Source: a virus (taxonomy: Duplodnaviria; Heunggongvirae; Uroviricota; Caudoviricetes). From it: a DNA stretch of 64,000 nucleotides. A model generated the notes under the pieces. It was not told where the DNA came from and did not search any database. It was given only the letters and a program-made list of their open reading frames with translations. The stretch's first letter is position 1; each line of letters begins with the position of its first letter. Shown piece by piece: positions 3,901-58,275 of the stretch. Where the stretch lies: the IMG/VR virus record IMGVR_UViG_3300029708_000226, one strand, 5' to 3'. The position numbers and the translations under genes are program-made.

Positions 3901-4272
3901 TTACCTTTCTGAAATTGCCGCCGCATACGCCAAATAACATGCAATATCGCCAAGATCTTTTCTGCCAAATTCTTTTTCCAAAGGCATTTTATTATACCTA
4001 AGAAAAATATTCAGACAATCCATAAACCGATCATGTGACGATGTACGATATTTGTCGTTTTCTATCTTCCACATACTATCATGTATTGCCCAGTCCATAC
4101 GGTATTTTGCATACTTGATTGCTGCATTAAGCAAATCCGTCGCTAACTCCCTATTATCCTCATCTTCGCCAGATAGAGCATTCGGAAGCATGGTGCTTAC
4201 GAGTATAGCGATATCTTCACATTCGGAATTGGTAAAAAAACTATTCATAGAAAAGTTCCTCCTTCCGGTCAT
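3901..4272 (-). CDS. Hypothetical protein (123 aa)
   Basis: ORF with its own upstream motif and terminator. Confidence 0.5.
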   Translation of the reverse strand: MTGRRNFSMNSFFTNSECEDIAILVSTMLPNALSGEDEDNRELATDLLNAAIKYAKYRMDWAIHDSMWKIENDKYRTSSHDRFMDCLNIFLRYNKMPLEKEFGRKDLGDIACYLAYAAAISER

Positions 4273-6026: not shown

Positions 6027-6357
6027 AATTTTCTCCTATTCTGTTATATATAACTATTATGAAAGATATTTTTTTAAATAACAAAATTTCCCGGAGCGGG
6101 GACTCCGGGAAACGCATCAAAGATAAAAGGGGAATCAGATCTATTTTCATCTGATAATACTATTATAACAGCTTTGAAATTTATTGCAAATTTCTGCACA
6201 GAAATTATTACAAAGAAAAATAAACAAAAATAACAATACAAAACAGTATGTATTTAACAAAACAACTGTTCCATATTGTATTAATTTTAAAAATATGATA
6301 TTTTCGTTATGGCAAAAGTAGATAGATGTTTTTGTTTACGAAAGAGAGGCGAAAATC

Positions 6358-19325: not shown

Positions 19326-19454
19326 AAAATACGGTAAAACAAAGGGGTAAGATGTAAACTCCTATATTTGTTCCATTATTATTATGAAAGATTATTTTTA
19401 ATAACGGAAAATTCTGCATAGAAATACCCGTGGAAGAATCCACGGGTATCTATC

Positions 19455-32901: not shown

Positions 32902-32985
32902 TTATCTATTTTGATATATTTAATATGAAAGAAAAAGCCTTCCGGAAGTTATCCGGAAGGTTTGGAATATTATTATAAATATTAA

Positions 32986-33076
32986 CGCCGTGGCGGGGAG
33001 TCGAACCCCGAAACCGGATTTTACTCCGAGATGGTGGATTAGCAATCCACTGCTGTACCATTTGAGCCACCACGGC
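32986..33076 (-). tRNA. tRNA-Ser (anticodon GCT), class II
   Basis: Manual fold: GCCGTGG acceptor, anticodon loop TTGCTAA, long variable arm, T-loop TTCGACT. Confidence 0.65.
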
Positions 33077-33089
33077 AAGAAATATAAAC

Positions 33090-33159
33090 GGCCCATTGCG
33101 GATTCGAACCGCAGTCCCTGGGGTCAAGGCCCAGTGCATTGACCGCTATGCTAATGGGC
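33090..33159 (-). tRNA. tRNA, probably Gln (anticodon TTG); loop atypical
   Basis: Acceptor GCCCATT/AATGGGC, T-arm TGCGGTTCGAATCCGCA; anticodon loop CCTTGAC has C at position 33. Confidence 0.4.
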
Positions 33160-33165
33160 TAAAAA

Positions 33166-33257
33166 ACGCCAGTGACAGGACTCGAACCTGTACGTCGACA
33201 TAAATGCCGGCTTGCCTGTGTTCGAAGCAGGTGCTGTACCACTTGAGCCACACTGGC
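33166..33257 (-). tRNA. tRNA-Ser (anticodon CGA), class II
   Basis: Loop TTCGAAC; long variable arm; T-loop TTCGAGT. Confidence 0.6.
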
Positions 33258-33400
33258 AGACTCCCGTGCCCCGCAGATTGGCAGGTTTATCACGAATACC
33301 GCAGCCGTTAGTCAATTTCGACTGAAATACCGTTTAGCACGGGCTTTTTGCATATACACTGAATAGAAACAGGTGACTAATCTGCTTCGCACAGCTTAAA
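33258..33400 (-). ncRNA. Unassigned structured spacer within the tRNA array (no tRNA fold found)
   Basis: Long-range stem CCCGTGC (33262) / GCACGGG (33337) followed by CTTTTT; no ORF. Confidence 0.2.
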
Positions 33401-33407
33401 TGCAAAG

Positions 33408-33481
33408 ACATCGGTGGGATTCGAACCCACGATAAAACCTGTTTTGCAGACAGGCGCCTTAGACCACTCGACCACGATGCC
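33408..33481 (-). tRNA. tRNA-Cys (GCA)
   Basis: Anticodon arm CCTGT-CTGCAAA-ACAGG; T-loop TTCGAAT. Confidence 0.65.
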
Positions 33482-33489
33482 ATAATACT

Positions 33490-33562
33490 ACGGACAGCGG
33501 GACTCGAACCCGCAAAGTACGATTTAGAAGACCGTTGTTTTATCCAATTAGACATGCCCGTA
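33490..33562 (-). tRNA. tRNA-Arg (TCT)
   Basis: Loop CTTCTAA; T-loop TTCGAGT. Confidence 0.6.
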
Positions 33563-33572
33563 TAAAATATCC

Positions 33573-33645
33573 CCAGGCAGATTTGAACTGCCGTTCCCTG
33601 CGTGAGAGGCAGATGTCCTTGACCGCTAGACTATGGGGACTTAAC
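33573..33645 (-). tRNA. tRNA-Glu (CTC)
   Basis: Loop CTCTCAC; T-loop TTCAAAT. Confidence 0.55.
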
Positions 33646-33648
33646 GCT

Positions 33649-33737
33649 GTGACAGGGATTCGAACCCTGAAAGCGGGAATCTCACCCGACATGCCGGATT
33701 TCAAGGCCGGTGCTGTACCAGTTGAGCCATCACAGCA
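33649..33737 (-). tRNA. tRNA-Ser (TGA), class II
   Basis: Loop CTTGAAA; long variable arm. Confidence 0.6.
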
Positions 33738-33741
33738 AAAG

Positions 33742-33832
33742 CGGAACGGGAGGGACTTGAACCCTCAAAGCGTGGATTGACACGACATGTCCGGCTTCCA
33801 ACCGGGTCCTGTACCAATTGAGGCACCGCTCC
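33742..33832 (-). tRNA. tRNA-Ser (GGA), class II
   Basis: Loop TTGGAAG; long variable arm; T-loop TTCAAGT. Confidence 0.55.
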
Positions 33833-33860
33833 ATATCAGGCTCTTTAACAAGAGCCTTTA

Positions 33861-34382
33861 TCATTTTGAAATTTTATCAGCAATTCCGGATGCAACATAA
33901 GACTCCGGCTTAACCTTTGCCTCAAAACCCATTGAAGTGACCCAGCCTATGAGCTCAGGAATCAATTCCTTCGTCTTACCATGTTCAGAATAACCAGCAT
34001 CAATATGAATAGAAAACTCTGTGTTCAAAAATACGTCTTCATATTCCGTTGTCTCAAATATTGTAATAAGCTGTTCTGCTATTTCAAGTGAATCGCCGGT
34101 TTCCACACGAAGTTTTGTTCTTACATCTGAAATACGGTCACGTGCGTTAATCTTATAAAAGAAAATACCGCCGTGTCCTTCACAGATCACAGCAATTACA
34201 CTTACTTCTTTCGTATAATCAAAATTCTGCGAATCCGTACCGATCGTAATATGAATACCGGTACCATACTCTTTCATTCTTTCATAGTAAGCTTTTATAT
34301 ATTTTGGAATTTCCTGTATCATAAGCTCACCGTGTGATGGCGAAATCCAGTTTTCACTGTAATGTTTCTTACTCATGATCAC
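33861..34382 (-). CDS. Hypothetical protein (173 aa) embedded in the tRNA array
   Basis: ORF with a terminator hairpin (AGGCTCTTGTTAAAGAGCCT) at 33840-33860; no family recognised. Confidence 0.5.
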   Translation of the reverse strand: MIMSKKHYSENWISPSHGELMIQEIPKYIKAYYERMKEYGTGIHITIGTDSQNFDYTKEVSVIAVICEGHGGIFFYKINARDRISDVRTKLRVETGDSLEIAEQLITIFETTEYEDVFLNTEFSIHIDAGYSEHGKTKELIPELIGWVTSMGFEAKVKPESYVASGIADKISK

Positions 34383-34409
34383 GTTGCTCCTTTCTGATAT
34401 TTTTTAGCA

Positions 34410-34483
34410 GGCGCGGAGGGATTCGAACCCCCAGACAATCACGGTTTTGGAGACCGTTGCTGTACCAGTTGAGCCACGCACCC
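34410..34483 (-). tRNA. tRNA-Trp (CCA)
   Basis: Anticodon arm ACGGT-CTCCAAA-ACCGT. Confidence 0.65.
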
Positions 34484-34725
34484 ATAATAATGAACAATAA
34501 AAAACAGCCTCTTTTGATAAACTTTTTATCAGAAGATGCTGCAGAGAATGCCGGTAATTTTGTTATGCGAAAATTTTTGCATCAACAAATAAAGCAGTAC
34601 ATCTTCTTATCATGTCTACTCTCTGACCACGAACTATTGGATTGTCTGCTACATCTGTTTACGTTATGCATAATTATTTACTCCTTCCTGCAATTTTTCT
34701 GTATCTGCATAAAAACTGGAAAAAT

Positions 34726-34799
34726 ACGCCAAATCGGATTCGAACCGATACTAACAGGGGCTTAAACCCTGTGCCTCTGCCGATTGGGCTATTGGCGCA
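34726..34799 (-). tRNA. tRNA with Leu-type anticodon TAA but class-I architecture (5-nt variable region), A73
   Basis: GCGCCAA acceptor; anticodon arm CAGGG-TTTAAGC-CCCTG; variable region TTAGT; T-arm ATCGGTTCGAATCCGAT. Confidence 0.5.
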
Positions 34800-34803
34800 T
34801 AAT

Positions 34804-34876
34804 GGGTATGACAGGCCATGATCCTGCAACCTTCGGCTTAAGAGGCCGATACTCTGCCACTTGAGTTACATACCCG
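34804..34876 (-). tRNA. tRNA-Lys (CTT); non-canonical T-loop
   Basis: Anticodon arm TCGGC-CTCTTAA-GCCGA; T-loop ATCATGG. Confidence 0.55.
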
Positions 34877-34898
34877 TGGATACACATGCGGTATCAGT

Positions 34899-34982
34899 GC
34901 ACCCGACGAGACTCGAACTCGCATGGAAAGTAATTCCGCCAGATTAAAAGTCTGGTGCCATACCAATTAGGCGACGGATGCA
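34899..34982 (-). tRNA. Class-II tRNA (16-nt variable arm, A73) with anticodon TTT; identity unclear
   Basis: Anticodon arm CCAGA-CTTTTAA-TCTGG; variable arm CGGAATTACTTTCCAT; T-loop TTCGAGT. Confidence 0.45.
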
Positions 34983-35062
34983 TACATTATAACTTTGATA
35001 ATCGCTTGCATAACTGTTTTCGTTTCATGATTATTTCTCCTTTATTATAAAGATTTTCAATC

Positions 35063-35137
35063 CCAAGGACAGGATTTGAACCTGCGTTTGCCGGGTATGA
35101 ACCGGCCGTACTCGCCGCTATACTACCCTGGAGTAGC
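35063..35137 (-). tRNA. tRNA-Met/fMet/Ile2 (CAT)
   Basis: Anticodon arm GCCGG-TTCATAC-CCGGC. Confidence 0.55.
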
Positions 35138-35138
35138 G

Positions 35139-35209
35139 GGTCCAGGAGTCGAAGCCTGGTATCGCAAGGGTTATGAGCCCTGCATGGTAAATCCGTTCCA
35201 CTCACCCGC
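35139..35209 (-). tRNA. tRNA (CAT), second copy, atypical T-arm
   Basis: Loop CTCATAA; T-region CCAGGCTTCGACTCCTGG. Confidence 0.4.
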
Positions 35210-35212
35210 AAA

Positions 35213-35288
35213 TGCTGATAACAGGACTCGAACCTGTAACCCCATGCTTGTAAGGCATATGCTCTCCCAGTTGAGCTACATCAGCATA
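35213..35288 (-). tRNA. tRNA-Val (TAC)
   Basis: GCTGATG acceptor; loop CTTACAA; T-loop TTCGAGT. Confidence 0.6.
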
Positions 35289-35289
35289 G

Positions 35290-35362
35290 TTGTGGTGGAC
35301 AGAGTCGGACTGTCGTTAACCGCTCATCAGACGGTCTTTCTACCATTGAAATACACCACAAT
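35290..35362 (-). tRNA. tRNA-Ile (GAT)
   Basis: Loop CTGATGA. Confidence 0.45.
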
Positions 35363-35376
35363 ATTTTTTATGAAGC

Positions 35377-35449
35377 CTGTGACAAGATTTGAACTTGCAA
35401 CCCTCTACTTACGAGATAGACGCTCTGCCAATTAGAGCTACACAGGCAT
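35377..35449 (-). tRNA. tRNA-Thr (CGT)
   Basis: GCCTGTG acceptor; loop CTCGTAA; T-loop TTCAAAT. Confidence 0.65.
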
Positions 35450-35451
35450 TT

Positions 35452-35526
35452 TACAGTGCTCCCATGGCGACTCGAACGCCAACTACAGAGTTCGTAGCCC
35501 TGCCGTCTATCCATTAGCGTATGAGA
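35452..35526 (-). tRNA. tRNA-Arg (ACG)
   Basis: Anticodon arm CAGGG-CTACGAA-CTCTG; T-loop TTCGAGT. Confidence 0.55.
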
Positions 35527-35527
35527 G

Positions 35528-35600
35528 CATAGCAGGCGGTAACCGAATCGAACGGGTGTCTCACGGCTCAGAACCGCACGGTTTACCTCTAACCTAACCG
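35528..35600 (-). tRNA. tRNA, probably Gln (CTG)
   Basis: Loop TTCTGAG; T-loop TTCGATT. Confidence 0.4.
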
Positions 35601-35608
35601 CCTATAAG

Positions 35609-35682
35609 CCGCAGAAGGGACTCGAACCCTTAATCCCCTGATTACAAAGCAGGTGCATTACCATTGTGCTACAGCGGCATAT
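35609..35682 (-). tRNA. tRNA-Thr (TGT)
   Basis: Loop TTTGTAA; T-loop TTCGAGT. Confidence 0.55.
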
Positions 35683-35691
35683 TTAATTTCA

Positions 35692-35776
35692 GGGAGACCA
35701 GTGGGGCTCGAACCCACGTAGGAATTGCTTCCGCAGAGCCACAATCTGCTGCCTAACCAACTCGGTCACAGCCTCC
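35692..35776 (-). tRNA. tRNA-His (GTG) with G-1:C73 but an unusual 15-nt variable arm (85 nt)
   Basis: G-1 then GAGGCTG; anticodon arm GCAGA-TTGTGGC-TCTGC; variable arm GGAAGCAATTCCTAC; T-loop TTCGAGC; 3' GGTCTCC then C. Confidence 0.5.
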
Positions 35777-35779
35777 ATA

Positions 35780-35853
35780 GCTGGAATGGCGGGACTTGAA
35801 CCCACAACCTACCGGTTAACAGCCGGTCGCTCTACCATTGAGCTACAAACCAA
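35780..35853 (-). tRNA. tRNA-Asn (GTT) with two U-U mismatches in the acceptor stem
   Basis: Anticodon arm ACCGG-CTGTTAA-CCGGT; T-loop TTCAAGT; acceptor UGGUUUG/CAUUCCA. Confidence 0.5.
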
Positions 35854-35870
35854 TACTATATTATCTAAAT

Positions 35871-35945
35871 GGGGCGAGTGAGAATCGAACTCACGACACA
35901 CGGCTTATAAGGCCGCTGCTCTTGACCCCTGAGCTACCACCCCTT
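35871..35945 (-). tRNA. tRNA-Ile (TAT), the rare AUA decoder
   Basis: Anticodon arm GCGGC-CTTATAA-GCCGT; T-loop TTCGATT. Confidence 0.55.
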
Positions 35946-36037
35946 ATGAAATAAGGTTCGGTATAGATATTCGTCTCATGGTCTTGTTTCTCCTTTATAT
36001 TTGTTATACTCTTTCTACAGGAAAGAAAATGTACCAG

Positions 36038-36111
36038 AAGGGATTCGAACCCATAGAAAACCGGATTTGAGCCGGCCCCGTCTGCCAGTTGCGGCACTGA
36101 TGCATACAGTC
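36038..36111 (-). tRNA. tRNA with Leu-type anticodon CAA, class-I architecture, A73
   Basis: Anticodon arm GCCGG-CTCAAAT-CCGGT; 5-nt variable region; T-loop TTCGAAT. Confidence 0.5.
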
Positions 36112-36114
36112 GGA

Positions 36115-36188
36115 ATGACAGGTCTCGAACCTGCAGCCTCATGATCCCAAATCACGCGCGCTACCAATTGCGCCACATCCCGATACAG
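36115..36188 (-). tRNA. tRNA-Pro (TGG)
   Basis: Anticodon arm CGTGA-TTTGGGA-TCATG; T-loop TTCGAGA. Confidence 0.55.
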
Positions 36189-36264
36189 TGCCCATGAGTG
36201 GATTCGAACCACCAACCTCTGCCATCTGAAGACAGTTCGTCTGCCAATTGCGCCACATGGACAT
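36189..36264 (-). tRNA. tRNA with Leu-type anticodon CAG, class-I architecture, A73
   Basis: Anticodon arm CTGTC-TTCAGAT-GGCAG; variable region AGGTT; T-loop TTCGAAT. Confidence 0.5.
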
Positions 36265-36267
36265 CAC

Positions 36268-36347
36268 AGTACCTCGAATGGGAGTCGAACCCATAAACAA
36301 TCACAGAGTCCTTAGCTCTGCCGCTTTGCCAATTTGCGTACCGAGGC
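36268..36347 (-). tRNA. tRNA with Leu-type anticodon AAG; intermediate 9-nt variable region
   Basis: Anticodon arm CAGAG-CTAAGGA-CTCTG; T-loop TTCGACT. Confidence 0.45.
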
Positions 36348-36361
36348 ATATTTATTTTAAG

Positions 36362-36445
36362 TGGGCGAAGAAGGACTTGAACCTTCAGAAGCCGAAGCCA
36401 ACTGTTTTACAGACAGTACCGCTGCCAATTACGGGATATTCGCCC
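36362..36445 (-). tRNA. tRNA-Tyr (GTA), class II
   Basis: GGGCGAA/TTCGCCC acceptor, A73; loop CTGTAAA; long variable arm; T-loop TTCAAGT. Confidence 0.65.
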
Positions 36446-36450
36446 AAAAG

Positions 36451-36538
36451 TCGGCAGGGTGAGAGTCGAACTCACAATGTTTACCACGAGGGTCACAGTT
36501 TTACAGACTGCTTGCTTCAGCCTTTTGCATACCTGCCG
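36451..36538 (-). tRNA. Second tRNA-Tyr (GTA), class II, diverged sequence
   Basis: CGGCAGG/CCTGCCG acceptor, A73; loop CTGTAAA; ~19-nt variable arm. Confidence 0.55.
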
Positions 36539-36607
36539 TTAATAATATTCAGTTCCCATATAATAATAGTCTGGCATATCAGTCATCTCCTTTACATTTC
36601 TTAAGCT

Positions 36608-36681
36608 CTCACAGCAGGACTTGAACCTGCAACATCCCGGTTAACAGCCGGACGCTCTACCGATTGAGCTATGCGAGAATA
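36608..36681 (-). tRNA. tRNA-Asn (GTT), second copy
   Basis: Anticodon arm TCCGG-CTGTTAA-CCGGG; T-loop TTCAAGT. Confidence 0.6.
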
Positions 36682-36683
36682 GA

Positions 36684-36757
36684 GTGCGTGAACGGATTCG
36701 AACCGTCCCTTTCTGCTTGGAAGGCAGATGTGCTATCCGCTGACACTACACACACAT
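36684..36757 (-). tRNA. tRNA-Gly (TCC)
   Basis: Anticodon arm TCTGC-CTTCCAA-GCAGA; T-loop TTCGAAT. Confidence 0.6.
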
Positions 36758-36763
36758 AAGCGA

Positions 36764-36838
36764 CTCCAACGGGATTTGAACCCGTGTTATTCCTGCGTGA
36801 CAGGCAGGTGCCATAAACCAGCTAGGCGATGGAGCCAT
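36764..36838 (-). tRNA. tRNA-Asp (GTC)
   Basis: Anticodon arm CCTGC-CTGTCAC-GCAGG; T-loop TTCAAAT; G73. Confidence 0.6.
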
Positions 36839-36841
36839 AAT

Positions 36842-36915
36842 GCCTCGTTTCGGTTACGATCCGATCCTCTGGAGCTTCAATCCAGCGCTTCTACCAAGTT
36901 AGCTTACGAGGCTCG
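36842..36915 (-). tRNA. tRNA-Phe (GAA) with non-canonical T-loop
   Basis: GCCTCGT/ACGAGGC acceptor; loop TTGAAGC; T-loop ATCGTAA. Confidence 0.5.
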
Positions 36916-37025
36916 GTAAAGTCAGTATCGTCTTTACCGCCATAAAATCGTTTATCCATATTTTTTCAATGTCCTTTCGTATATTGTATAAATCCTGAGT
37001 GCCTGGTTCAGAATTTAAGAGCAGA

Positions 37026-37096
37026 TGACGGAACTCGAATCCGCATTTCTGACTTGGCAAGCCAGTGTATTAGCCAGCTATACGACATCTGCATGT
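37026..37096 (-). tRNA. tRNA-Gly (GCC)
   Basis: GCAGATG acceptor, U73; loop TTGCCAA; T-loop TTCGAGT. Confidence 0.6.
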
Positions 37097-37159
37097 GGGA
37101 CAAACGGAGTGCCTGGTTCCATAAGTCCCTGTTTTGTTGTATTACGGATATTTCCGTAG

Positions 37160-37232
37160 CGACCGATGCGGGATTCGAACCCACGTCTCGGGAGTGAAAT
37201 TCCCGTGACCTCGTCCTCTAGTCGAATCGGCC
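37160..37232 (-). tRNA. tRNA-Glu (TTC)
   Basis: Anticodon arm CGGGA-ATTTCAC-TCCCG; T-loop TTCGAAT. Confidence 0.5.
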
Positions 37233-37239
37233 AAATCAA

Positions 37240-37316
37240 TGGAGCATATGGGAATCGAACCCATCTGTTTTTCCTGTTTGCAAAACAGGCGACCACCCCT
37301 TGCAGTCCCATACCCC
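37240..37316 (-). tRNA. tRNA-Ala (TGC) with G3:U70
   Basis: GGGGTAT/ATGCTCC acceptor gives the G3-U70 Ala identity pair, A73; loop TTTGCAA. Confidence 0.65.
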
Positions 37317-37403
37317 ATATAATTAAAAAGACCACTAAACTAAGACAATTTCTTAATCCAGTGGTCATGATTTCATATTTCCAATCTATGCGCGGTTCCT
37401 GTT

Positions 37404-45445: not shown

Positions 45446-45697
45446 CTATGCCGCACATATTCCGACATAACCACAACCATGTATAACTTTATATCTGTCA
45501 TCTTTCTCAAAACAGAAATCCAGACTTTCTTCGGGACACTCTTCCGGATCAATCCATCCGGTCCGGTTTGCTCGCATGATCGTCCCATCTTCGCACCGCC
45601 AGATAATATCTCCTTTTTCGAAAGTTGTGTCCGTACTACTTTTCGTCACCTTATACACAACATTTTTCTCCATTACTGCTTTTCTCCTGTATTCCAC
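45446..45697 (-). CDS. Hypothetical protein (83 aa)
   Basis: ORF. Confidence 0.45.
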   Translation of the reverse strand: MEYRRKAVMEKNVVYKVTKSSTDTTFEKGDIIWRCEDGTIMRANRTGWIDPEECPEESLDFCFEKDDRYKVIHGCGYVGICAA

Positions 45698-46218
45698 GGA
45701 GCGACAATACCCAGAAGTTTCAAATAAGCATATACTTCTTTATATCCGCCTATCCCGAACATACAAATCTTATTCAGATTTCCGTAGTCGATAATATCGC
45801 CCACGGTTTTGATTCCGGCACGACGAAGAACGCTATAAGTTCGGTGGGAAAATTCGAAATCCTCCAGGGTCAAATTCCGCTTTTCTTCCATAGATAAAGA
45901 TGCGTAGGTTTTCTTTTTCTCGATCCAGTGATTCAAACCGTAGCACAAAAGCTCCGGACGATAGGCACGGCGCATATATGCAATAAAAATACGGATGCGG
46001 TTCGTAACAGTTTCCGGTATGATGCCATCCTCTTCCGCAATCTTTTCAATAGACTCTCCGTACATATAGTGCCTGATAACAGTGTTTGTAATCGTTTCCG
46101 GGACATCAGCGGCGGCATAGCGTAGCGCTTCATCAAAATCCTTACATGGCGTAATATCCTCTTTAAATATTTGACGGTACAATTCTTCCTGCCAGGTTTT
46201 ATTGTATTTCTCTGCCAT
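45673..46218 (-). CDS. Transcription-factor-like protein: sigma-70 region-4-type HTH plus an RNA polymerase alpha-CTD-like HhH domain
   Basis: ESIEKIAEEDGIIPETVTNRIRIFIAYMRR (sigma region 4-like); LEDFEFSHRTYSVLRRAGIKTVGDII matches the alpha-CTD consensus LxELxLSVRSxNCLKRAGIxTVGDL. Confidence 0.6.
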   Translation of the reverse strand: MAEKYNKTWQEELYRQIFKEDITPCKDFDEALRYAAADVPETITNTVIRHYMYGESIEKIAEEDGIIPETVTNRIRIFIAYMRRAYRPELLCYGLNHWIEKKKTYASLSMEEKRNLTLEDFEFSHRTYSVLRRAGIKTVGDIIDYGNLNKICMFGIGGYKEVYAYLKLLGIVAPWNTGEKQ

Positions 46219-47390: not shown

Positions 47391-48242
47391 CTAATGAGTT
47401 ATATCCTGCTTCTTACTTTGTGTTATATTTCTGTTATGTGTTACATTATCTGCATAAGTCAGCATTTCGGTCAATTTGGGGCATTCAAGATAACATTCCA
47501 AAGAACTTGCTGTTCGTATATGATCAATTTCAGCCTTTTTGATTTTTGTTCCCAGTTCGCTTATGTAAGCAATGTATTTGTTATCGCCATTATCTTCTGA
47601 AATTTTAATTTCAGAATTTCCTTTATTATTTTGCAGCCAGATCTTCTTATCTGGATATTCATGTTTTAAACAATGATAAGCTTTTTCGATATTTGATGTG
47701 AACGGCATTTTGTTCTGAATAAAATCCGAAATATTGACTCTTAATCCAGTTTCTTCGGCACGTTCGTGAAAAATATCTACGTATGCCGTTTTAACGAAAA
47801 ATCCAAATGGCGATTCGTCAGAAAAATCTCTTTGAAGAACAACCGTCGTCATTGTTGTAGCCAGTTCTCTTCCATCAATCGTTATTCCGTGTCCTACCGG
47901 ATCGTCTCCCATATCTAATGTAAACGTCAGTGTATGATAATTTTGGGGTTCTTTGAAATCTATCTTTTCTGATGTGATCCAGTTTGAGATTTCTTTCGCT
48001 TTGTAATATATCGCATCCTGTAGTGTACTAACTAATGTTTCCGCATCGTAAAAACTGGAAACAGCCTGTTTCTCTTCTTTGACCATTCTAGTAATCATAT
48101 CATCTATCGATATATCTGTATGTAATGTGGAAGAATGTCCTTTATTAACATTTAAAATACAGGATACATCATCCATAACTGCTTCTTCAAGCTTTTCCTG
48201 ATATAATTCCGGGTCCATTCGCCTAATTGTGTCTCTATCCAT
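47391..48242 (-). CDS. 283-aa protein, paralog of 13773..14684
   Basis: Collinear similarity; same gene order (large protein then small paralog genes) as the 13.4-14.7 kb module. Confidence 0.55.
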   Translation of the reverse strand: MDRDTIRRMDPELYQEKLEEAVMDDVSCILNVNKGHSSTLHTDISIDDMITRMVKEEKQAVSSFYDAETLVSTLQDAIYYKAKEISNWITSEKIDFKEPQNYHTLTFTLDMGDDPVGHGITIDGRELATTMTTVVLQRDFSDESPFGFFVKTAYVDIFHERAEETGLRVNISDFIQNKMPFTSNIEKAYHCLKHEYPDKKIWLQNNKGNSEIKISEDNGDNKYIAYISELGTKIKKAEIDHIRTASSLECYLECPKLTEMLTYADNVTHNRNITQSKKQDITH

Positions 48243-48342
48243 AACAATTACCTCCCATATTCATTAATATGAAAGATAAATACATGAGAAATACACAAAA
48301 CAGCAGCCTTTGAGACTGCTGTTCCGCTACGTTTCATATTAT

Positions 48343-48459
48343 TTTTCTTCCATCACAAATACTCTTTTTGTATCCCGATGTTTCTCTTTCAATACACATA
48401 TATCAGCCGGTTCCGGCAAAATATCATTAACAACGCTCCCTTTGGTCTTTTTACTCATA
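48343..48459 (-). CDS. Small protein (~38 aa, MSKKTKGSVVNDILPEPADICVLKEKHRDTKRVFVMEEK)
   Basis: Has its own promoter motif (48479-48497); weak RBS. Confidence 0.3.
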
Positions 48460-48718
48460 ACATTCATCCTGTTCCATTATTAATATGACAGATAAATATA
48501 AAAGAAAAGCCCGCGGTATCCACGAGCGTTTCTTCATCATTTATCAATTTCATCGCATTCCGCGTATGCGTCATCGATCAATGCCGTAACCTGGCACTTT
48601 TCACAAATACCATAGCAGGAAGCCTCCCGTCTTCAGACTGTGAGGAGGAATGCGTCTTTCTGTGCAGAAATCTGCACGGAACACATAATCTGTCATAATA
48701 CTTATATAAGGAGTATTT

Positions 48719-50185
48719 ATGACAGAATCATATGTTTTGACGCTAAAACTGAATACTTCTCCTGAACAGGATGTATGGCTGAGCCACACTTTCTGGTGTG
48801 GACAGCAGATCTATAACGTTCTCGTGCGGCACTGCAAGAAGCAGCTCCGGAAGTTAATACAGGATCCGGAGTATCGAGATCTTCTGGTTGCGAGGAAGGA
48901 GTCCGGTTTTTCGAAAGCTGACAAGAACCGCATCAATCAGGAACTCGCAGATATCCGCATAGGTTATGGACTTAGTGAATATCAACTGCACGCATATGTT
49001 TCCGTACAGCAGCACAGATACAAGAAATCCATTGACTCTGATGTAGCCCAGAAGATCGCTTCTTCCGTATGGCGTTCTGTAGAGAAGTATCTGTTTGATA
49101 ACGGGAAATGCATTCATTTCAGGAAATACGATGAATTTGAAAGCATGGAGGGTAAGAAAAATACTTCCGGCATGCGGTTTAAAGACGGCCGGCTTCATTG
49201 GCGTGGGCAGGTGATCCAGCCGCAGATCCGGACGGATTATGACCGGAAAGCTCTGAAATCCCGTGTAAAGTACTGCCGTATCCAGAGGAAGCCCGTGGGT
49301 ACGAAATACCACTACTACTTGCAGCTGGTTCTGGAAGGAAAGCCCCCGGTAAAGCATCCGGTCGGTCATGGAACCGCCGGACTGGATATCGGGATCTCTA
49401 CCGCGGCTATCGTGACCAAGGATTCCTGTAAACTGACGGTACTCAGTTCCGATGCAAAAGATCATTCTGCGCAGATCAGGCGGACTCAGAGAGCCATGGA
49501 CCGGAGCAGACGCATCACGAATCCGGATAATTATCTGCCGGACGGCACTGTCCGCAAGGGTGCAAGGAAGTGGATTCGTTCGAAGCACTACAGGAAGCTT
49601 CAGTTCCGCAAGAAGTCCATGGAACGCCGGCATGCCGATGCGATAAATACCGGCCACCACCGGCTTGCGAATGAAATTGCCTCGAAGGCAGATACCGCGT
49701 ACGTGGAAAAGATGTTTTTCCATGGTCTTGCACGGAGATCGAAGTCTGCCACGAAGAAAGCCGATGGCCGGTTCCGGAGCAGGAAGCGGTTCGGAAAGTC
49801 CATAGGCAACCACGCACCGGCGGCATTCCTAAAAATTCTGGAAAGCCGGCTTGCTTCTAGCGGCGGGGAGTTAATTAAGATCGATACCGTAAGCTTCCGT
49901 GCCAGCCAGTACAATCATGTAACGGATGACTACGTCCGAAAGAAGCTTTCCTGCCGGGGAAGTTTTGTTGGCAGCCGTTATGTACAGAGAGACCTGTATT
50001 CGGCGTTCCTGCTAAAGAACAGTAACGACACCGGCACGGCTGCCGACAGACAGAAGTGCATCGACACCTTCCCCATGTTCCTGATAACACATAACGCCTG
50101 CATGGACGCGCTCCTTGCAGAGAACAAGAAATATCCTTCGAGCTTCGGTCTCCGGAGCTACAAATACCATAAACGTAACTGTTAA
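48719..50185 (+). CDS. tnpB: TnpB (IS200/IS605 OrfB-type RNA-guided nuclease)
   Basis: 488 aa; RuvC-I-like GLDIGISTAAIV; Arg/Lys-rich; C-terminal Cys-containing region; preceded by a plus-orientation copy of the cassette promoter motif and the palindrome. Confidence 0.8.
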   Translation: MTESYVLTLKLNTSPEQDVWLSHTFWCGQQIYNVLVRHCKKQLRKLIQDPEYRDLLVARKESGFSKADKNRINQELADIRIGYGLSEYQLHAYVSVQQHRYKKSIDSDVAQKIASSVWRSVEKYLFDNGKCIHFRKYDEFESMEGKKNTSGMRFKDGRLHWRGQVIQPQIRTDYDRKALKSRVKYCRIQRKPVGTKYHYYLQLVLEGKPPVKHPVGHGTAGLDIGISTAAIVTKDSCKLTVLSSDAKDHSAQIRRTQRAMDRSRRITNPDNYLPDGTVRKGARKWIRSKHYRKLQFRKKSMERRHADAINTGHHRLANEIASKADTAYVEKMFFHGLARRSKSATKKADGRFRSRKRFGKSIGNHAPAAFLKILESRLASSGGELIKIDTVSFRASQYNHVTDDYVRKKLSCRGSFVGSRYVQRDLYSAFLLKNSNDTGTAADRQKCIDTFPMFLITHNACMDALLAENKKYPSSFGLRSYKYHKRNC

Positions 50186-50189
50186 TCAT

Positions 50190-50345
50190 GTAAACGGGTT
50201 CGACAGGATCCGGCCGCGTGAAGCACTCGTCGGAGTGCTTGCGGCGAAATTCTGGTTAAGGTACGGCAGCTATAACAAACACTGTTCTGCATAAAAAAAG
50301 ATCCGCTTCCTGACCGTAAAGATCAGAAACCGGATCCGTTGTAAG
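50190..50345 (+). ncRNA. Candidate omega-RNA/reRNA scaffold of TnpB
   Basis: GC-rich stem-loops (GGATCCGGCCGCGTGAAGCACTCGTCGGAGTGCTTGCGGCG...GGATCCG) immediately 3' of tnpB, as expected for IS605-family right ends. Confidence 0.4.
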
Positions 50346-50363
50346 AATTGTCAAGTGATGCTG

Positions 50364-50468
50364 TTATGTACCCGGAACCTGCCAGTCTTTAGACTGTGCA
50401 GAGCTGTCAGAGAATCCGCATAATTTGTCGCGGGCATCCAGCAGCTCGCTTAATTCTTCTCTACTCAT
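50364..50468 (-). CDS. Small protein (~34 aa, MSREELSELLDARDKLCGFSDSSAQSKDWQVPGT)
   Basis: AAGGAG RBS 7 nt upstream; overlaps the right-hand 17-bp repeat. Confidence 0.3.
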   Translation of the reverse strand: MSREELSELLDARDKLCGFSDSSAQSKDWQVPGT

Positions 50469-50481
50469 TCCGATTTTCTCC

Positions 50482-51420: not shown

Positions 51421-51922
51421 TTTCTTTGGTTTTCTCATTACGTTTTCCTCCTGTTATCTTTGCTTTCCTTTAATATGAAAGAAAACGAATATCCAAAGAC
51501 ATAAAAATATCCCCGGTCAGCCTGACCGGGGAACGCATCAAAGATAATTGGGGGAAGTCGGTTGTTTTGTTAACCGATGATCATATTATAGCAGATATTG
51601 AAATAAACGCAAATTTCTGCACAGAAATTTTTTAGAGAAAAACTCCGGGGATTCCGGAGTTGATTTCTCTTTTCACCTTTGATGATGATACAGTCGCCAT
51701 CGGTGGTGATATATTTAATTTTCAGATCCAAAATCGTATCCAGTGGTTTGTTTCACCCATTTTTTTCTTGAATCAAATACGGGATCTTTATCGTGTCACG
51801 TTTCCTCCGTGTTATCTTTGCAGATTCCTCTGTATCAGCCATAATACCTAAGCTATAAGGAATTGTCGGATAATCTTTCTTATGTAAGGTTACGTTACAA
51901 AATCATATTGTCCTCCTAATAT

Positions 51923-56131: not shown

Positions 56132-57187
56132 TTATATTAGCGTTAGATTCGATCCGGTTGTTTTCTCAAACAGATTGTAAATATCTCTCTTTTCGAATTT
56201 GAATCCGCCGGCTCCCTTGTGTCCGCCGCCTCCGAACTGTTTGACAATTTCTGCCACATTGATATCTTCCTTGTCACTGCGGATAGAGACCCCGTTTCCG
56301 TAATTAACAATGAACAGATCAAGCTGCGGATACGTATCGCGCATGTAATCCAGAACATCGAATATATATTTGGAATCATCAATGTAGGCAATGTCGTATG
56401 TTCTTGTATAGTTATCTTCCATCGGAATATCCAGTGTCCCGAATTTGATCTGATTCTTAATGTTTTCAACATGCTCTTTTCTTTTTGCTTTTTCTGCTTT
56501 GAGCATAATTCTATCGGTATCGGAGCCATAATAAATTGGAGACAATCCGATTTTTGATAATCTTCTGCGAACATACAGATTATTCCCATAAGCGGCAAAC
56601 AGGAGATTTTCATCCTTAAATTTATAGTTTCCTTCAAAACAGGTTTTCCAATCCCGTGTATCGTAAGCGGAAATCCATAGACATATATTTTCTGCTGTAA
56701 TGCAACTTGCATCAGGAAGAAAATTAATACCACAATAATACATGTAATCTAATATGAGAGAGGTTCCTGAAGAATGCCCGTTTGAATAATAATTGACCAG
56801 GAAGGAATCTTCTAACATATCCCCGAAACTTACGCCCCAGGAATATCTGTTGATATACTGGCTTGTCAGATGATGGTCCAGTAAAACGAACCGGCTGTTA
56901 ATATCAGGCAGGCTATCGATATATTCAGCATCCGCCTCATTGCAGGAAATATCGCAGGCAATAACTTTACCGAAGCTTTCAGCGATAGCCGCATCGGTTA
57001 AAGCTTCCTTGACGCGTCCACTCATCACCCCGTTACTAAGATGTACAACCTTAATATTTTTATCCGGAAACATGCATCTCAAAACGATTTCTGCTCCGGC
57101 TCCATCTGCGTCATCATGTGTCAGTAACAAAATGCGGTCGTCTTTATTGACTTTTGCAAGTTTTCCAAATAATTCGTTTCTAAACAT
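56132..57187 (-). CDS. DHH-DHHA1 family phosphoesterase (NrnA/GdpP-catalytic-domain-like)
   Basis: LLTHDDADGAGAEIV (motif I/II), LLDHH (DHH) and C-terminal GGGGHKGAGGF (DHHA1 GGGH). Confidence 0.8.
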   Translation of the reverse strand: MFRNELFGKLAKVNKDDRILLLTHDDADGAGAEIVLRCMFPDKNIKVVHLSNGVMSGRVKEALTDAAIAESFGKVIACDISCNEADAEYIDSLPDINSRFVLLDHHLTSQYINRYSWGVSFGDMLEDSFLVNYYSNGHSSGTSLILDYMYYCGINFLPDASCITAENICLWISAYDTRDWKTCFEGNYKFKDENLLFAAYGNNLYVRRRLSKIGLSPIYYGSDTDRIMLKAEKAKRKEHVENIKNQIKFGTLDIPMEDNYTRTYDIAYIDDSKYIFDVLDYMRDTYPQLDLFIVNYGNGVSIRSDKEDINVAEIVKQFGGGGHKGAGGFKFEKRDIYNLFEKTTGSNLTLI

Positions 57188-57558: not shown

Positions 57559-58275
57559 TTATCCGAAATACTTCAGCACCTTACAACCCTCTTTTGAAAA
57601 ACTGATATAAGCGTATCTGCAGAATCCAATAGAAGGAACATTTGCGACGTTTTCCATCATATTCTCGTGCAAATGGCCATGAAAATGGTACGCAGGCTGT
57701 CTGTTCAGTAGATACCATGTGATCCCCTCAAGTCCTGCGTGCGATCCTTCGTCTCCCGCTTTCTTAGCTTTATCGTGACTGAGCAGAATATCACATTCAG
57801 GAAGTGTTTTTGCGATTTTTACGCTCTCCTCATCCGTCATCATCGGTGCATCTGTATTTTTGTATTTGATACTTCCATGGATGCCTGTAAAACTCACACC
57901 ATTGACTACCACCATTTTCCCGTTTATGTCCGGAAGACCGGTCTCTTCGAGCTGTCCGTAATAATCGTGATTTCCAAGAAGTGCGTATCTTGGAATATCT
58001 GCGTAATACTGTTTGAGAAGCAGCTGTTCTCTTTCACTCATGTCTCCGAGTGCAAATACAATATCCACATCTCTGATGTCGGAAATGAAATTATCCAGTG
58101 CCTGTTTCGTCATATGCCCATGGGTATCTGTTATGAATAGCGCACGAAATTCCCCGGTACATCCCGGAATCTCCCGTTTACGAACCTCAAAACGCTTTTC
58201 TTCCTCGGAAAACATGACTTTTTTCGCTGTATCATTATGCATGATTTTTCTTCTTAACAATCTGTCCAAAAACAT
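57559..58275 (-). CDS. Metallophosphoesterase (calcineurin-like)
   Basis: LFITDTHGH, ALGDMSE, LLGNHDYYG and HFHGHLHE motifs. Confidence 0.75.
   Translation of the reverse strand: MFLDRLLRRKIMHNDTAKKVMFSEEEKRFEVRKREIPGCTGEFRALFITDTHGHMTKQALDNFISDIRDVDIVFALGDMSEREQLLLKQYYADIPRYALLGNHDYYGQLEETGLPDINGKMVVVNGVSFTGIHGSIKYKNTDAPMMTDEESVKIAKTLPECDILLSHDKAKKAGDEGSHAGLEGITWYLLNRQPAYHFHGHLHENMMENVANVPSIGFCRYAYISFSKEGCKVLKYFG

What the first reader, a model, noticed from the sequence alone, without database searches (positions are those of the whole stretch)
48590..50470. GC-rich TnpB insertion wired to a cassette-type promoter
The tnpB body is ~55% GC against ~38% around it, indicating recent horizontal acquisition. 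Imperfect 17-bp direct repeats (48611-48627 and 50383-50399) bracket it. A GC-rich structured segment 3' of the stop fits an omega-RNA. The sequence immediately upstream of tnpB contains both the palindrome (TTTCTGTGCAGAAATCTGCAC) and a plus-oriented copy of the cassette motif (ATCTGTCATAATAC). So the nuclease gene appears to be expressed from the element's own promoter type, suggesting domestication or at least integration into the regulatory scheme. No TnpA is in the window.
Basis: partly seen in the sequence, partly recalled or inferred. Interest (0 to 1): 0.6.

Follow-up and report, generated by a model that had tools for sequence, protein, structure and literature searches.

The report
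Phage-adapted TnpB insertion sequence with guide RNA
This is an ordinary kind of jumping gene (a TnpB-only IS200/IS605 element with its guide RNA) sitting in a large gut phage; its one unusual trait is that it carries its own copy of the phage's promoter type, so it seems adapted to living in phages.

Summary
The TnpB gene is real and it is a true insertion. It is a complete, non-autonomous IS200/IS605-family element of 1,806 bp (window 48605-50410), inserted just 3' of a TCAC target in a tRNA-rich large phage. Comparison with more than 12 other insertion sites fixes both ends. They lie inside the element and are not a target duplication. The 219 nt after the stop codon (50192-50410) form a guide-RNA (omega-RNA) scaffold with strong covariation support. 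The palindrome and the promoter motif also lie inside the element and move with it. A matrix trained only on the phage's nine own promoters scores this one at 33 bits, the best untrained site in the window. An autonomous sibling that carries tnpA lacks this promoter, and so do bacterial relatives. No tnpA is in the window. Related phages lack the element here. This window in turn holds three empty TAM-plus-target sites that match the guides of copies in related phages. High GC is a trait of the whole element family, not a sign of recent arrival. Domestication is not supported. Verdict: a new member of a known kind with one interesting regulatory feature.

The parts
48601..48604 (+). Target / transposon-adjacent motif (TAM), TCAC. 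It is phage DNA, not part of the element.
   Evidence: All 11 distinct left flanks end in T(T/C)AC. Empty sites keep TYAC directly joined to the right flank. Removing a mini-element just after TTAC restores a tRNA-Val(TAC).
48605..50410 (+). Complete non-autonomous (tnpB-only) IS200/IS605-family element, 1,806 bp.
   Evidence: Homology with copies in unrelated flanks starts and stops at these positions. Related phages L019, L020 and L023 lack it.
48613..48648 (+). Left-end (LE) subterminal imperfect palindrome (stem CCTCC 48623-48627 / GGAGG 48644-48648; inner GTCT/AGAC). It is the left copy of the 35-nt LE/RE repeat. Inferred TnpA recognition hairpin.
   Evidence: the repeat finder family D1, conservation in alignment A1, and a weak DNA fold of -3.7 kcal/mol.
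48657..48670 (+). Palindrome TTTCTGTGCAGAAA. It looks like an operator and is shared with nine phage promoters in the window.
   Evidence: The distance to the -10 element is within one base of that at the phage promoters.
48671..48699 (+). Promoter-like core: -35-like TCTGCA (48671-48676), 17-nt spacer, TG (48691-48692), -10 CATAAT (48694-48699).
   Evidence: A matrix trained on the 9 phage instances scores this site 33.4 bits, the best untrained site in the window (next best 20.0). It is conserved in all tnpB-only and mini copies at 30.8-36 bits. The simple sigma-70 scan does not call it.
48708..48713 (+). Shine-Dalgarno sequence AAGGAG, 5 nt before the ATG.
   Evidence: Read directly from the sequence. 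Invariant in alignment A1.
48719..50185 (+). tnpB, 488 aa. RuvC triad D223 / E330 / D425. The usual CxxC...CxxC zinc finger is replaced by SQYNH....
   Evidence: NCBIfam guided_TnpB 5.8e-20, below its cut-off. AlphaFold2 model pLDDT 89; Foldseek top hits are ISFba1 and ISDra2 TnpB at E 1e-14. Invariant residues. dN/dS 0.11-0.17.
50192..50410 (+). Omega-RNA (reRNA) scaffold, lying entirely 3' of the stop codon and ending at the right end.
   Evidence: MFE -78.4 kcal/mol, z = -4.45. 41 consensus pairs, 22 with compensatory changes against 6.2 in shuffles. A covariance model finds the same RNA right after tnpB in 15 bacterial loci that were not used to build it; 33 of 41 pairs covary. Mini-elements keep exactly this segment.
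50379..50401 (+). Right-end (RE) subterminal hairpin (CTGCCAGTC-TTTA-GACTG-T-GCAG). The element ends 9 nt further on.
   Evidence: DNA fold -7.7 kcal/mol, z = -2.2. Invariant in alignment A2. Right copy of repeat D1.
50411..50430 (+). Flanking phage DNA that would form the guide segment of the omega-RNA (AGAATCCGCATAATTTGTCG). The guide length is inferred.
   Evidence: It is the first base after the conserved ...GCTGTCAG end and differs at every insertion site. That it serves as the guide follows from established TnpB biology.
19334..19357 (-). Empty site: TTAC followed by ATCTTACCCCTTTGTTTTAC. It lies in a 5' UTR.
   Evidence: An exact 20 of 20 match to the right flank (guide) of full copies L032 and L040; the mini-element L033 sits at the same site with one mismatch.
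56724..56747 (-). Empty site: TTAC followed by ATGTATTATTGTGGTATTAA.
   Evidence: Exact match to both flanks of the copy in L029.
57699..57722 (-). Empty site: TCAC followed by ATGGTATCTACTGAACAGAC.
   Evidence: Exact match to the guide of L036; one mismatch to L009.
48509..48527 (-). Terminator-like hairpin plus T-run for the minus-strand 202-aa/77-aa gene pair. The element lies between that pair's stop codon (50482) and this hairpin.
   Evidence: The same hairpin directly follows the 77-aa gene in the IS-less allele L019.

Best explanation
Window 48605-50410 is a non-autonomous IS200/IS605-family insertion sequence with the tnpB-only architecture of the IS1341 group. It inserted 3' of a TCAC target in a non-coding stretch of a large, tRNA-rich phage of gut Clostridia.

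Shown:
- The exact ends, and the absence of a target duplication.
- The TYAC target.
- Hairpin-bearing LE and RE.
- A TnpB-fold protein with an intact RuvC triad, under purifying selection.
- A conserved, covarying structured RNA between the stop codon and the right end.
- Presence/absence polymorphism at several sites among related phages.
- An autonomous sibling with a Y1 TnpA in a related phage.

Inferred from established TnpB/IS605 biology:
- A Y1 TnpA supplied in trans moves the element as single-stranded DNA.
- Transcription from the promoter in the LE yields the tnpB mRNA, whose 3' part is processed into an omega-RNA. The last 16-20 nt of that RNA (the guide) come from the flank at 50411 onward.
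- The TnpB-omega-RNA complex cuts any TYAC-flanked copy of that flank, meaning an empty site in a sister genome or a co-infecting phage. Recombinational repair from an occupied genome then copies the element in (homing).

Particular to this lineage: the tnpB-only and tnpB-less derivatives carry a promoter of the phage's own operator-bearing class in place of the TTGCAA-17-TATAAT promoter and tnpA of the autonomous form. The nuclease and guide are therefore probably expressed under the phage's own transcription programme.
For: Ends and insertion:
- blastn and alignments against copies in different contexts.
- 37 metagenome loci give at least 12 sites, and every left flank ends in TYAC.
- Removing a mini-element after TTAC restores tRNA-Val(TAC).
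- Of the tallied contigs with the identical 77-aa neighbour gene, 16 carry the element and 5 lack it.
- Three empty TAM-plus-target sites in the window match the guides of relatives' copies.

Protein:
-.
- dN/dS 0.11-0.17, with D-E-D intact in every copy.

RNA:
-.

TnpA:
- The gene at L062 1093-1491 matches Y1_Tnp at 3.4e-38, sits between the LE and tnpB, and is followed directly by a tnpB that starts with TTG.
- About 30 of 80 bacterial relatives have a Y1-like tnpA directly upstream.

Promoter:
-.
- Phage-clade tnpB-only and mini copies score 30.8-36 bits. The autonomous copy scores 3.0, the 56%-identical relative in an integrative-element-like context scores -2.9, and there are no hits of 28 bits or more in 513 kb of bacterial loci.

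Literature:
- The homing model and omega-RNA-encoding PATEs are published (PMC10055086).
- TnpB processes its own mRNA into the omega-RNA (PMC10278001).
Against: - No transcript, cleavage or transposition data exist for this element.
- The protein scores below the curated cut-offs of both NCBIfam guided_TnpB (71.9 against 100) and Pfam OrfB_IS605 (16.2 against 30.5). It also lacks the zinc-finger cysteines, so nuclease activity is not guaranteed.
- The generic sigma-70 scan does not call the LE promoter, and its -35 matches only 3 of 6.
- No tnpA was found in the 64-kb window, and none could be placed in this phage lineage. Current mobility of this particular copy is therefore unproven.
- An exact empty allele of this site was not found. 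The IS-less alleles also lack about 92 bp of flanking DNA.
- A 56%-identical non-phage relative has a partly homologous LE promoter (TGTGCAGAA ... TTTGCA ... TGgTATTAT). Part of the resemblance to phage promoters may therefore be ancestral.
Confidence: 0.8

Rival explanations
1. Domesticated TnpB. The phage has co-opted the nuclease and guide as a fixed-function gene, for example a weapon against competing phages or a TldR-like regulator, expressed from a phage promoter. The gene is no longer a transposon.
For: It carries a phage-class promoter. It sits at the same locus in most contigs of this lineage. It is under purifying selection. Guides of copies in relatives match this phage perfectly, so competition between phages is possible.
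Against: Both transposon ends and hairpins are intact, and the same unit occurs at 12 or more sites. The guide is simply whatever flanks the right end, so there is no fixed target. The RuvC triad is intact, unlike in TldRs. Mini-elements and an autonomous tnpA-bearing form coexist. IS-less alleles are common.
Confidence: 0.1
2. The promoter resemblance is not an adaptation by the element. Either the motif is a general host promoter or operator type that both the phage and the IS use, or the phage's promoters descend from fragments of the IS left end.
For: The 56%-identical relative L064, which sits in an integrative-element-like context, already has TGTGCAGAA, a TTTGCA -35 and an extended -10 in its LE. 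CTGTGCAGAG also occurs next to the RE hairpin. The host genome could not be searched.
Against: L064 lacks the palindromic half-site and has 5 extra nt of spacing, and it scores -2.9 bits. The autonomous phage-clade copy scores 3.0. There are no hits of 28 bits or more in 513 kb of Bacillota loci. The nine phage promoters share nothing with the LE outside the functional motif positions, which argues against descent from LE fragments.
Confidence: 0.2
3. An inert passenger: a dead IS copy that persists only because it is harmless where it sits.
For: It lies in a non-coding stretch between a stop codon and a terminator. No tnpA is in the window. The protein has no zinc finger.
Against: dN/dS is 0.11-0.17 across copies, with full-length ORFs and the catalytic triad throughout. 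The RNA shows strong compensatory evolution. The element is polymorphic at several sites among closely related phages.
Confidence: 0.05
4. A phage-encoded miniature type V CRISPR effector (like Cas-lambda, Cas-phi or Cas12f), or an IS607-type element moved by a serine recombinase.
For: Foldseek also matches Cas12f, Cas12m, Cas12p and Cas-lambda structures. There is a weak NCBIfam IS607_TnpB hit at 7e-5.
Against: There is no repeat array within 45-54 kb and no other copy of the RNA in the window. The best structural matches are true TnpBs. Relatives carry Y1 TnpA rather than a serine recombinase. The hairpin ends and the TTAC-type target are typical of IS200/IS605.
Confidence: 0.02

Closest known systems
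IS608 / ISHp608 and ISDra2 (IS200/IS605 family; Y1 TnpA plus TnpB)
   Same: Subterminal imperfect hairpins at both ends, with no inverted repeats and no target duplication. Insertion is 3' of a short motif (TTAC for IS608; TYAC here). The right end lies about 9-10 nt past its hairpin. The autonomous sibling has tnpA followed by tnpB. The guide RNA scaffold overlaps the right end.
   Different: This copy has no tnpA. Its TnpB is larger (488 aa) and lacks the zinc-finger cysteines. The omega-RNA scaffold lies wholly downstream of the stop codon. The promoter is of the phage's own class.
IS1341-group (tnpB-only) elements and PATEs of Geobacillus stearothermophilus (Meers et al. 2023, PMC10055086)
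   Same: Many non-autonomous tnpB-only copies and gene-less mini-elements encode omega-RNAs. They are presumed to be moved, and served with TnpB, in trans by a rare autonomous element.
   Different: Here the whole set (autonomous form, tnpB-only form, mini-elements of about 331 bp, solo-RE remnants) was found only on phage-like contigs. The mini-elements join the phage-class promoter directly to the omega-RNA.
TnpB-family 'transposase' genes in sequenced Firmicutes phages (Geobacillus virus E3; Clostridium phage c-st, 4 places; phiCD211 / phiCDIF1296T; D-1873)
   Same: They belong to the same TnpB subfamily (35-42% aa identity over 94-98% of the length) and sit in large phages.
   Different: Those copies are annotated only as transposases. 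Their ends, guides and promoters were not examined here, and the clade in this window is at most 52% identical to anything in the GTDB species-representative genomes.
Free-standing homing endonuclease genes of T-even phages (Seg, Mob), and the proposed 'transposon non-restorative homing' (PMC13565253)
   Same: A nuclease gene that is present or absent at defined sites among related phages, whose target is the empty allele in a co-infecting genome.
   Different: Recognition here would be RNA-guided and would differ for each insertion site. Homing has not been demonstrated.

Membership tests
IS200/IS605 insertion sequences | Subterminal imperfect palindromes (hairpins) at LE and RE, with no terminal inverted repeats | tested here: met
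   35-nt LE/RE repeat containing hairpins, conserved in all copies. The LE hairpin is weak when folded alone.
IS200/IS605 insertion sequences | Insertion 3' of a specific 4-5 nt motif, without target-site duplication | tested here: met
   TYAC at 11 distinct left flanks. Empty sites join TYAC directly to the right flank. tRNA-Val is restored by precise removal.
IS200/IS605 insertion sequences | Y1 (HUH) TnpA transposase encoded by the element or by a sibling | tested here: met
   Absent from this copy and from the window. Present in the autonomous sibling L038/L052/L055/L062, Y1_Tnp 3.4e-38, and directly upstream of tnpB in about 30 of 80 bacterial relatives.
IS200/IS605 insertion sequences | Single-strand 'peel and paste' transposition | not testable with these tools
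   Only indirect evidence: many sites and presence/absence polymorphism.
TnpB (OMEGA RNA-guided nucleases) | Match to curated sequence models | tested here: inconclusive
   NCBIfam guided_TnpB at 5.8e-20 over nearly full length, but 71.9 bits against a cut-off of 100. Pfam OrfB_IS605 at 16.2 bits against 30.5.
TnpB (OMEGA RNA-guided nucleases) | TnpB/Cas12 fold with a split RuvC domain and a D-E-D catalytic triad | tested here: met
   Model pLDDT 89. Foldseek top hits are 8iaz, 8h1j and 8exa at E 1e-13 to 1e-14. D223, E330 and D425 are invariant in 39 homologues.
TnpB (OMEGA RNA-guided nucleases) | CxxC...CxxC zinc finger between RuvC-II and RuvC-III (typical, Pfam OrfB_Zn_ribbon) | tested here: not met
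   No Pfam hit. The region reads ...FRASQYNHVTDDYVRKKLSCRG... with S396, Q397, Y398 and H400 invariant and no cysteine pairs. This holds for the whole subfamily, so it is a subfamily trait rather than decay.
TnpB (OMEGA RNA-guided nucleases) | Conserved structured RNA at the 3' end that runs to the transposon's right end, with the guide taken from the flank | tested here: met
   The flank differs at every site. No Rfam family matches.
TnpB (OMEGA RNA-guided nucleases) | RNA-guided, TAM-dependent DNA cleavage | not testable with these tools
   Needs biochemistry or an interference assay.
Domesticated TnpB (TldR-type) | Loss of transposon ends, inactivated RuvC, and a fixed guide against a host promoter | tested here: not met
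   Ends intact and mobile, triad intact, guide varies with the site.
Type V CRISPR-Cas | Adjacent CRISPR array | tested here: not met
   No array within 45-54 kb.
IS607 family | Serine-recombinase TnpA | tested here: not met
   Relatives carry Y1 TnpA. The IS607_TnpB model gives only 21.9 bits against a cut-off of 350.

The most novel reading that the evidence does not exclude
A lineage of IS605 elements has specialised for life inside large gut phages. Its tnpB-only and gene-less derivatives have swapped the transposon's own promoter and tnpA for the phage's operator-bearing promoter class. The nuclease and the guide RNAs would then be made on the phage's infection schedule. They would act as RNA-guided homing cassettes, or competition weapons, between co-infecting phages. 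This window already holds three intact TAM-plus-target sites for relatives' copies. The IS-less allele at this locus has lost the target itself, as a homing-resistant allele would.
Probability: 0.35. Interest if true: 0.65.

Novelty: new member of a known kind. Interest (0 to 1): 0.38.

Why it matters
On its own this is a textbook tnpB-only IS with its guide RNA. It is useful mainly as a well-delimited example: exact ends, TAM TYAC, a 219-nt scaffold, and a zinc-finger-less 488-aa TnpB.

Two things go beyond routine annotation:
1. A transposon that carries its carrier phage's own regulated promoter type, while its autonomous sibling does not, would be a clear case of a mobile element tuning its expression to a viral host.
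2. The panel of occupied, empty and target-deleted alleles among co-circulating phages, with perfect guide-target matches, gives a ready natural system. It could test whether TnpB elements home between co-infecting phages, an idea so far only proposed in reviews (PMC13565253).

Tried and rejected
Searches that found nothing:
- Megablast of 46-53 kb against 50,697 phage records: no match.
- Neighbour protein against IMG/VR: nothing.
- Exact right-end pattern in IMG/VR and in the GTDB representative genomes: 0 hits each. The clade is therefore absent from those collections at this stringency.
- Exact empty-site junction (AACCTGGCAC-N0-10-GAATCCGCATAA) in the metagenome contig collection: 0 hits.
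- Rfam at gathering thresholds and at E up to 10: only tRNAs and noise, no omega-RNA family.
- The generic sigma-70 scan does not call the LE promoter.
- PDB sequence search gave only a marginal LaTranC hit at E 0.02. The fold search was needed.

Searches that were inconclusive:
- A search for the sibling's TnpA found only short contigs. I could not tell whether this phage carries a tnpA outside the window.

Ideas rejected:
- The repeats as a target-site duplication.
- A CRISPR array.
- IS607 membership.
- Phage promoters as LE remnants: the only similarity between the IS and the rest of the window is the palindrome.
- A 13-of-14 match between the guide flank (50412-50425) and tnpB codons at 49519-49532, which lie next to a TCAC. 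The match is out of register with that TAM by one base and lies in the conserved NPDNY coding motif, so I treat it as coincidence.
Full report
**Context.** The window looks like part of a large phage.
- It holds an array of 35 tRNA genes at 32985-37317.
- It carries mostly small minus-strand genes, several of which match PHROG families.
- The same sequence occurs on metagenome contigs of 137-168 kb, including contig QUEC01000004.1 of the Clostridium sp. AF34-10BH assembly.
- It has no near relative among 50,697 deposited phage records.

**The gene.** ORF 48719-50185 (+) encodes 488 aa.
- Sequence models see it as TnpB only below their cut-offs: NCBIfam guided_TnpB at 5.8e-20 (71.9 against 100 bits) and Pfam OrfB_IS605 at 16.2 against 30.5 bits, with no zinc-ribbon hit.
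- An AlphaFold2 model built on 39 homologues has pLDDT 89. It matches TnpB structures best: ISFba1 8iaz at E 1.7e-14, and ISDra2 8h1j and 8exa. Small Cas12 proteins follow.
- D223, E330 and D425 sit in the usual RuvC motif contexts and are invariant. The zinc-finger cysteines are replaced by an invariant SQYNH motif across the subfamily.
- The subfamily is large. It has 2,286 clusters at 50% identity and at least 562 loci in representative genomes, almost all Bacillota, each at most 52% identical to this protein.

**Ends of the element.** The same unit occurs in unrelated flanks.
- Two copies lie on one 262-kb contig (L009, L010), and another lies beside a RuvB-like gene (L011-L016). Homology to the window runs only from about 48600 to 50410.
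- Scanning metagenomes for the right-end sequence gave 37 loci and at least 12 distinct sites.
- Every left flank ends in T(T/C)AC. Every right end is ...GCAGAGCTGTCAG, followed by unrelated DNA.
- Two tests show that TYAC belongs to the target and that nothing is duplicated. First, a 331-bp mini-element sits in the anticodon loop of a tRNA in a related phage's array, and deleting it just after TTAC restores tRNA-Val(TAC). Second, the window itself holds three unoccupied sites in which TYAC is joined directly to the right flank of a relative's copy (19353, 56743 and 57718, all minus strand).
- The element is therefore 48605-50410 (1,806 bp), its TAM is TCAC at 48601-48604, and the guide-forming flank starts at 50411.

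**The 'direct repeats'.** The repeat finder reports one 35-nt repeat, 48613-48647 against 50369-50403, 74% identical.
- Each copy holds an imperfect palindrome. The RE hairpin folds at -7.7 kcal/mol (z = -2.2). The LE hairpin is weak.
- The right end lies 9 nt past the RE hairpin.
- This is the standard IS200/IS605 end architecture, not a target duplication.

**TnpA.** None is in the window.
- Four to seven related loci (L038, L052, L055, L062 and others) carry an autonomous form: LE, a TTGCAA-17-TATAAT promoter, a 132-aa Y1 transposase (Pfam Y1_Tnp 3.4e-38), then a tnpB that starts with TTG directly after tnpA, then the RE.
- That form sits in a phage about 70% identical to this one.
- About 30 of 80 bacterial relatives also have a Y1-like tnpA directly upstream.

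**The RNA.** The 219 nt from 50192 to the right end fold far better than shuffles (-78.4 kcal/mol, z = -4.45, 0 of 200 shuffles as good).
- An alignment of 20 sequences, including relatives at 48-56% protein identity, gives a consensus of 41 pairs. Of the cells, 96.6% are paired. 22 pairs show compensatory changes, against 6.2 ± 1.8 in shuffles and at most 7 in slid controls.
- A covariance model built from that alignment finds the same RNA, full length and on the same strand, immediately after tnpB in 15 bacterial loci that were not used to build it. On that alignment, which is fitted to the model, 33 of 41 pairs covary.
- The mini-elements keep exactly this segment, from AAACGGGTTCGAC onward, which marks its functional 5' limit.
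- No Rfam family matches.

**The promoter.** The window has a recurring promoter-like architecture: TTTCTGTGCAGAAA, a weak -35-like hexamer, a 17-nt spacer ending in ATCTGT, then CATAAT or TATAAT.
- It occurs nine times on the minus strand, in most cases just upstream of a ribosome-binding site and start codon.
- The tenth instance is on the plus strand, at 48657-48699, inside the element.
- A position matrix trained on the nine phage sites alone scores the IS site at 33.4 bits. Training sites score 31.9-49.3, and the next best untrained site scores 20.0.
- Every tnpB-only and mini copy in this phage group scores 30.8-36 bits.
- The autonomous copy scores 3.0. A 56%-identical relative in an integrative-element-like context scores -2.9. 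Nothing reaches 28 bits in 513 kb of bacterial loci.
- That relative does have a partly homologous LE promoter (TGTGCAGAA ... TTTGCA ... TGgTATTAT), but without the palindromic half-site and with 5 extra nt. The phage-type promoter may therefore have evolved from a similar ancestor rather than being captured whole.
It is, however, cargo of the transposon and not a phage promoter that the insertion landed next to.
- In the mini-elements the same promoter sits about 25 nt upstream of the omega-RNA scaffold. These are PATE-like guide-only elements of the kind described by Meers et al. (PMC10055086).

**Polymorphism.**
- Of the tallied contigs that carry the identical neighbouring 77-aa protein, 16 have the element at this site and 5 do not.
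- Four of the five (the L019 type) lack 48563-50465, which is the element plus about 92 bp around it, between two CGGAATG repeats. Those alleles have lost both the TAM and the guide match.
- An exact empty junction was not found.
- Site 19353 is empty here, holds a full copy in L032 and L040, and holds a mini-element in L033.
- Some copies share a left flank but differ in their right flanks (L031, L040, L044), and solo-RE remnants exist (L022, L063, L030). The copies therefore also take part in rearrangements.

**GC content and age.**
- The element is 49.8% GC and the ORF 50.6% (GC3 59.7%), against 38.8% for the window.
- All phage-borne copies keep about 50% GC in flanks of 36-38% GC, although they differ from each other by dS 0.2-0.85. 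Several bacterial relatives show the same contrast, while others such as L070 and L085 do not.
- GC contrast is thus a lineage trait and says little about how recently the element arrived.
- dN/dS of 0.11-0.17 shows purifying selection on tnpB.

**Mechanism and comparison.**
- The shown parts fit a standard non-autonomous IS200/IS605 element. Transposition, RNA processing and cleavage are inferred from published work on ISDra2 and the Geobacillus elements (PMC8612924, PMC10055086, PMC10278001).
- Relatives of the same TnpB subfamily are already present, annotated as transposases, in Geobacillus virus E3, Clostridium phage c-st and phiCD211. A TnpB in a phage is therefore not new.
- Homing into co-infecting phages has been proposed but, as far as the searched literature shows, not demonstrated (PMC13565253).
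- IS605 left-end promoters controlled by a transposon-encoded Arc repressor were described recently (bioRxiv 10.64898/2026.09.24.754181). Here no Arc is encoded, and the operator-like palindrome is shared with phage promoters instead.

**Verdict.** The feature is a new member of a known kind. The phage-type promoter inside the transposon, and the set of natural empty and occupied alleles, are the parts worth following up.

Noticed in passing
window 6040-6215 (-) and 51460-51638 (-): Two paralogous units. Each has the phage-class promoter, then a stem-loop that differs by compensatory changes (TCAGAT/ATCTGA against TCGGTT/AACCGA), a conserved CCCC..TTATCTTTGATGCGTT block, and a GC-rich terminator hairpin with a T-run. 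They look like a small-RNA gene of about 90 nt present in two copies. No Rfam hit.
   Followed up: partly
window 32985-37317 (-): An array of 35 tRNA genes covering nearly all amino acids, which suggests a large phage that supplements host translation.
   Followed up: no
window 45673-46218 (-): A 181-aa protein whose C-terminal part matches the RNA polymerase alpha C-terminal domain (PF03118, 28.3 bits, above the cut-off). It could be the factor that reads the palindrome or an UP-like element of the phage promoter class.
   Followed up: no
window 47391-48242 (-): The 283-aa gene next to the insertion carries a bacterial CdiA-CT RNase A-like toxin domain (PF18431, 3.3e-10).
   Followed up: no
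window 48341-48548: A 208-bp unit (promoter motif, small ORF of about 39-42 aa, terminator) is present here but absent from otherwise 99% identical contigs L001-L007. Small single-gene cassettes come and go in this region.
   Followed up: partly
L041 2543-2873: A 331-bp tnpB-less mini-element (LE, phage-type promoter, omega-RNA, RE) is inserted in the anticodon loop of tRNA-Val(TAC) in a closely related phage's tRNA array, so it inactivates that tRNA gene.
   Followed up: yes
L019/L020/L023 about 4235-4250; window 48563-50465: The IS-less allele at this locus is a deletion of the element plus about 92 bp between two CGGAATG repeats. It removes both the TAM and the guide match, as expected for an allele resistant to TnpB homing.
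   Followed up: partly
L031, L040, L044 (shared left flank); L060; L022 5887-6010; L063 1761-1887; L030 6016-6070: Some copies share one flank but differ in the other, and solo right-end remnants of 55-129 bp exist. IS copies appear to act as recombination or deletion points in these mosaic phage genomes.
   Followed up: partly
L024 2307-3584 (Clostridium sp. AF34-10BH contig QUEC01000004.1): In the isolate-genome copy of this phage, an IS110-family transposase gene (DEDD_Tnp_IS110) lies between the 203-aa and 77-aa genes, about 1 kb from the TnpB element.
   Followed up: no
L022 1-697: A related phage encodes an AcrVA2-like protein (PF26125) a few kb from this region. That family is an anti-Cas12a family, which is notable next to Cas12-related TnpB elements.
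   Followed up: no
window 49519-49532 vs 50412-50425; 48603-48614 vs 50160-50171: The guide-forming flank matches 13 of 14 nt inside tnpB, next to a TCAC but one base out of register. Separately, the 12 nt that span the left junction (AC of the TAM plus the first 10 nt of the element) recur exactly near the tnpB stop codon. Both are probably coincidences, but they are unexplained.
   Followed up: partly
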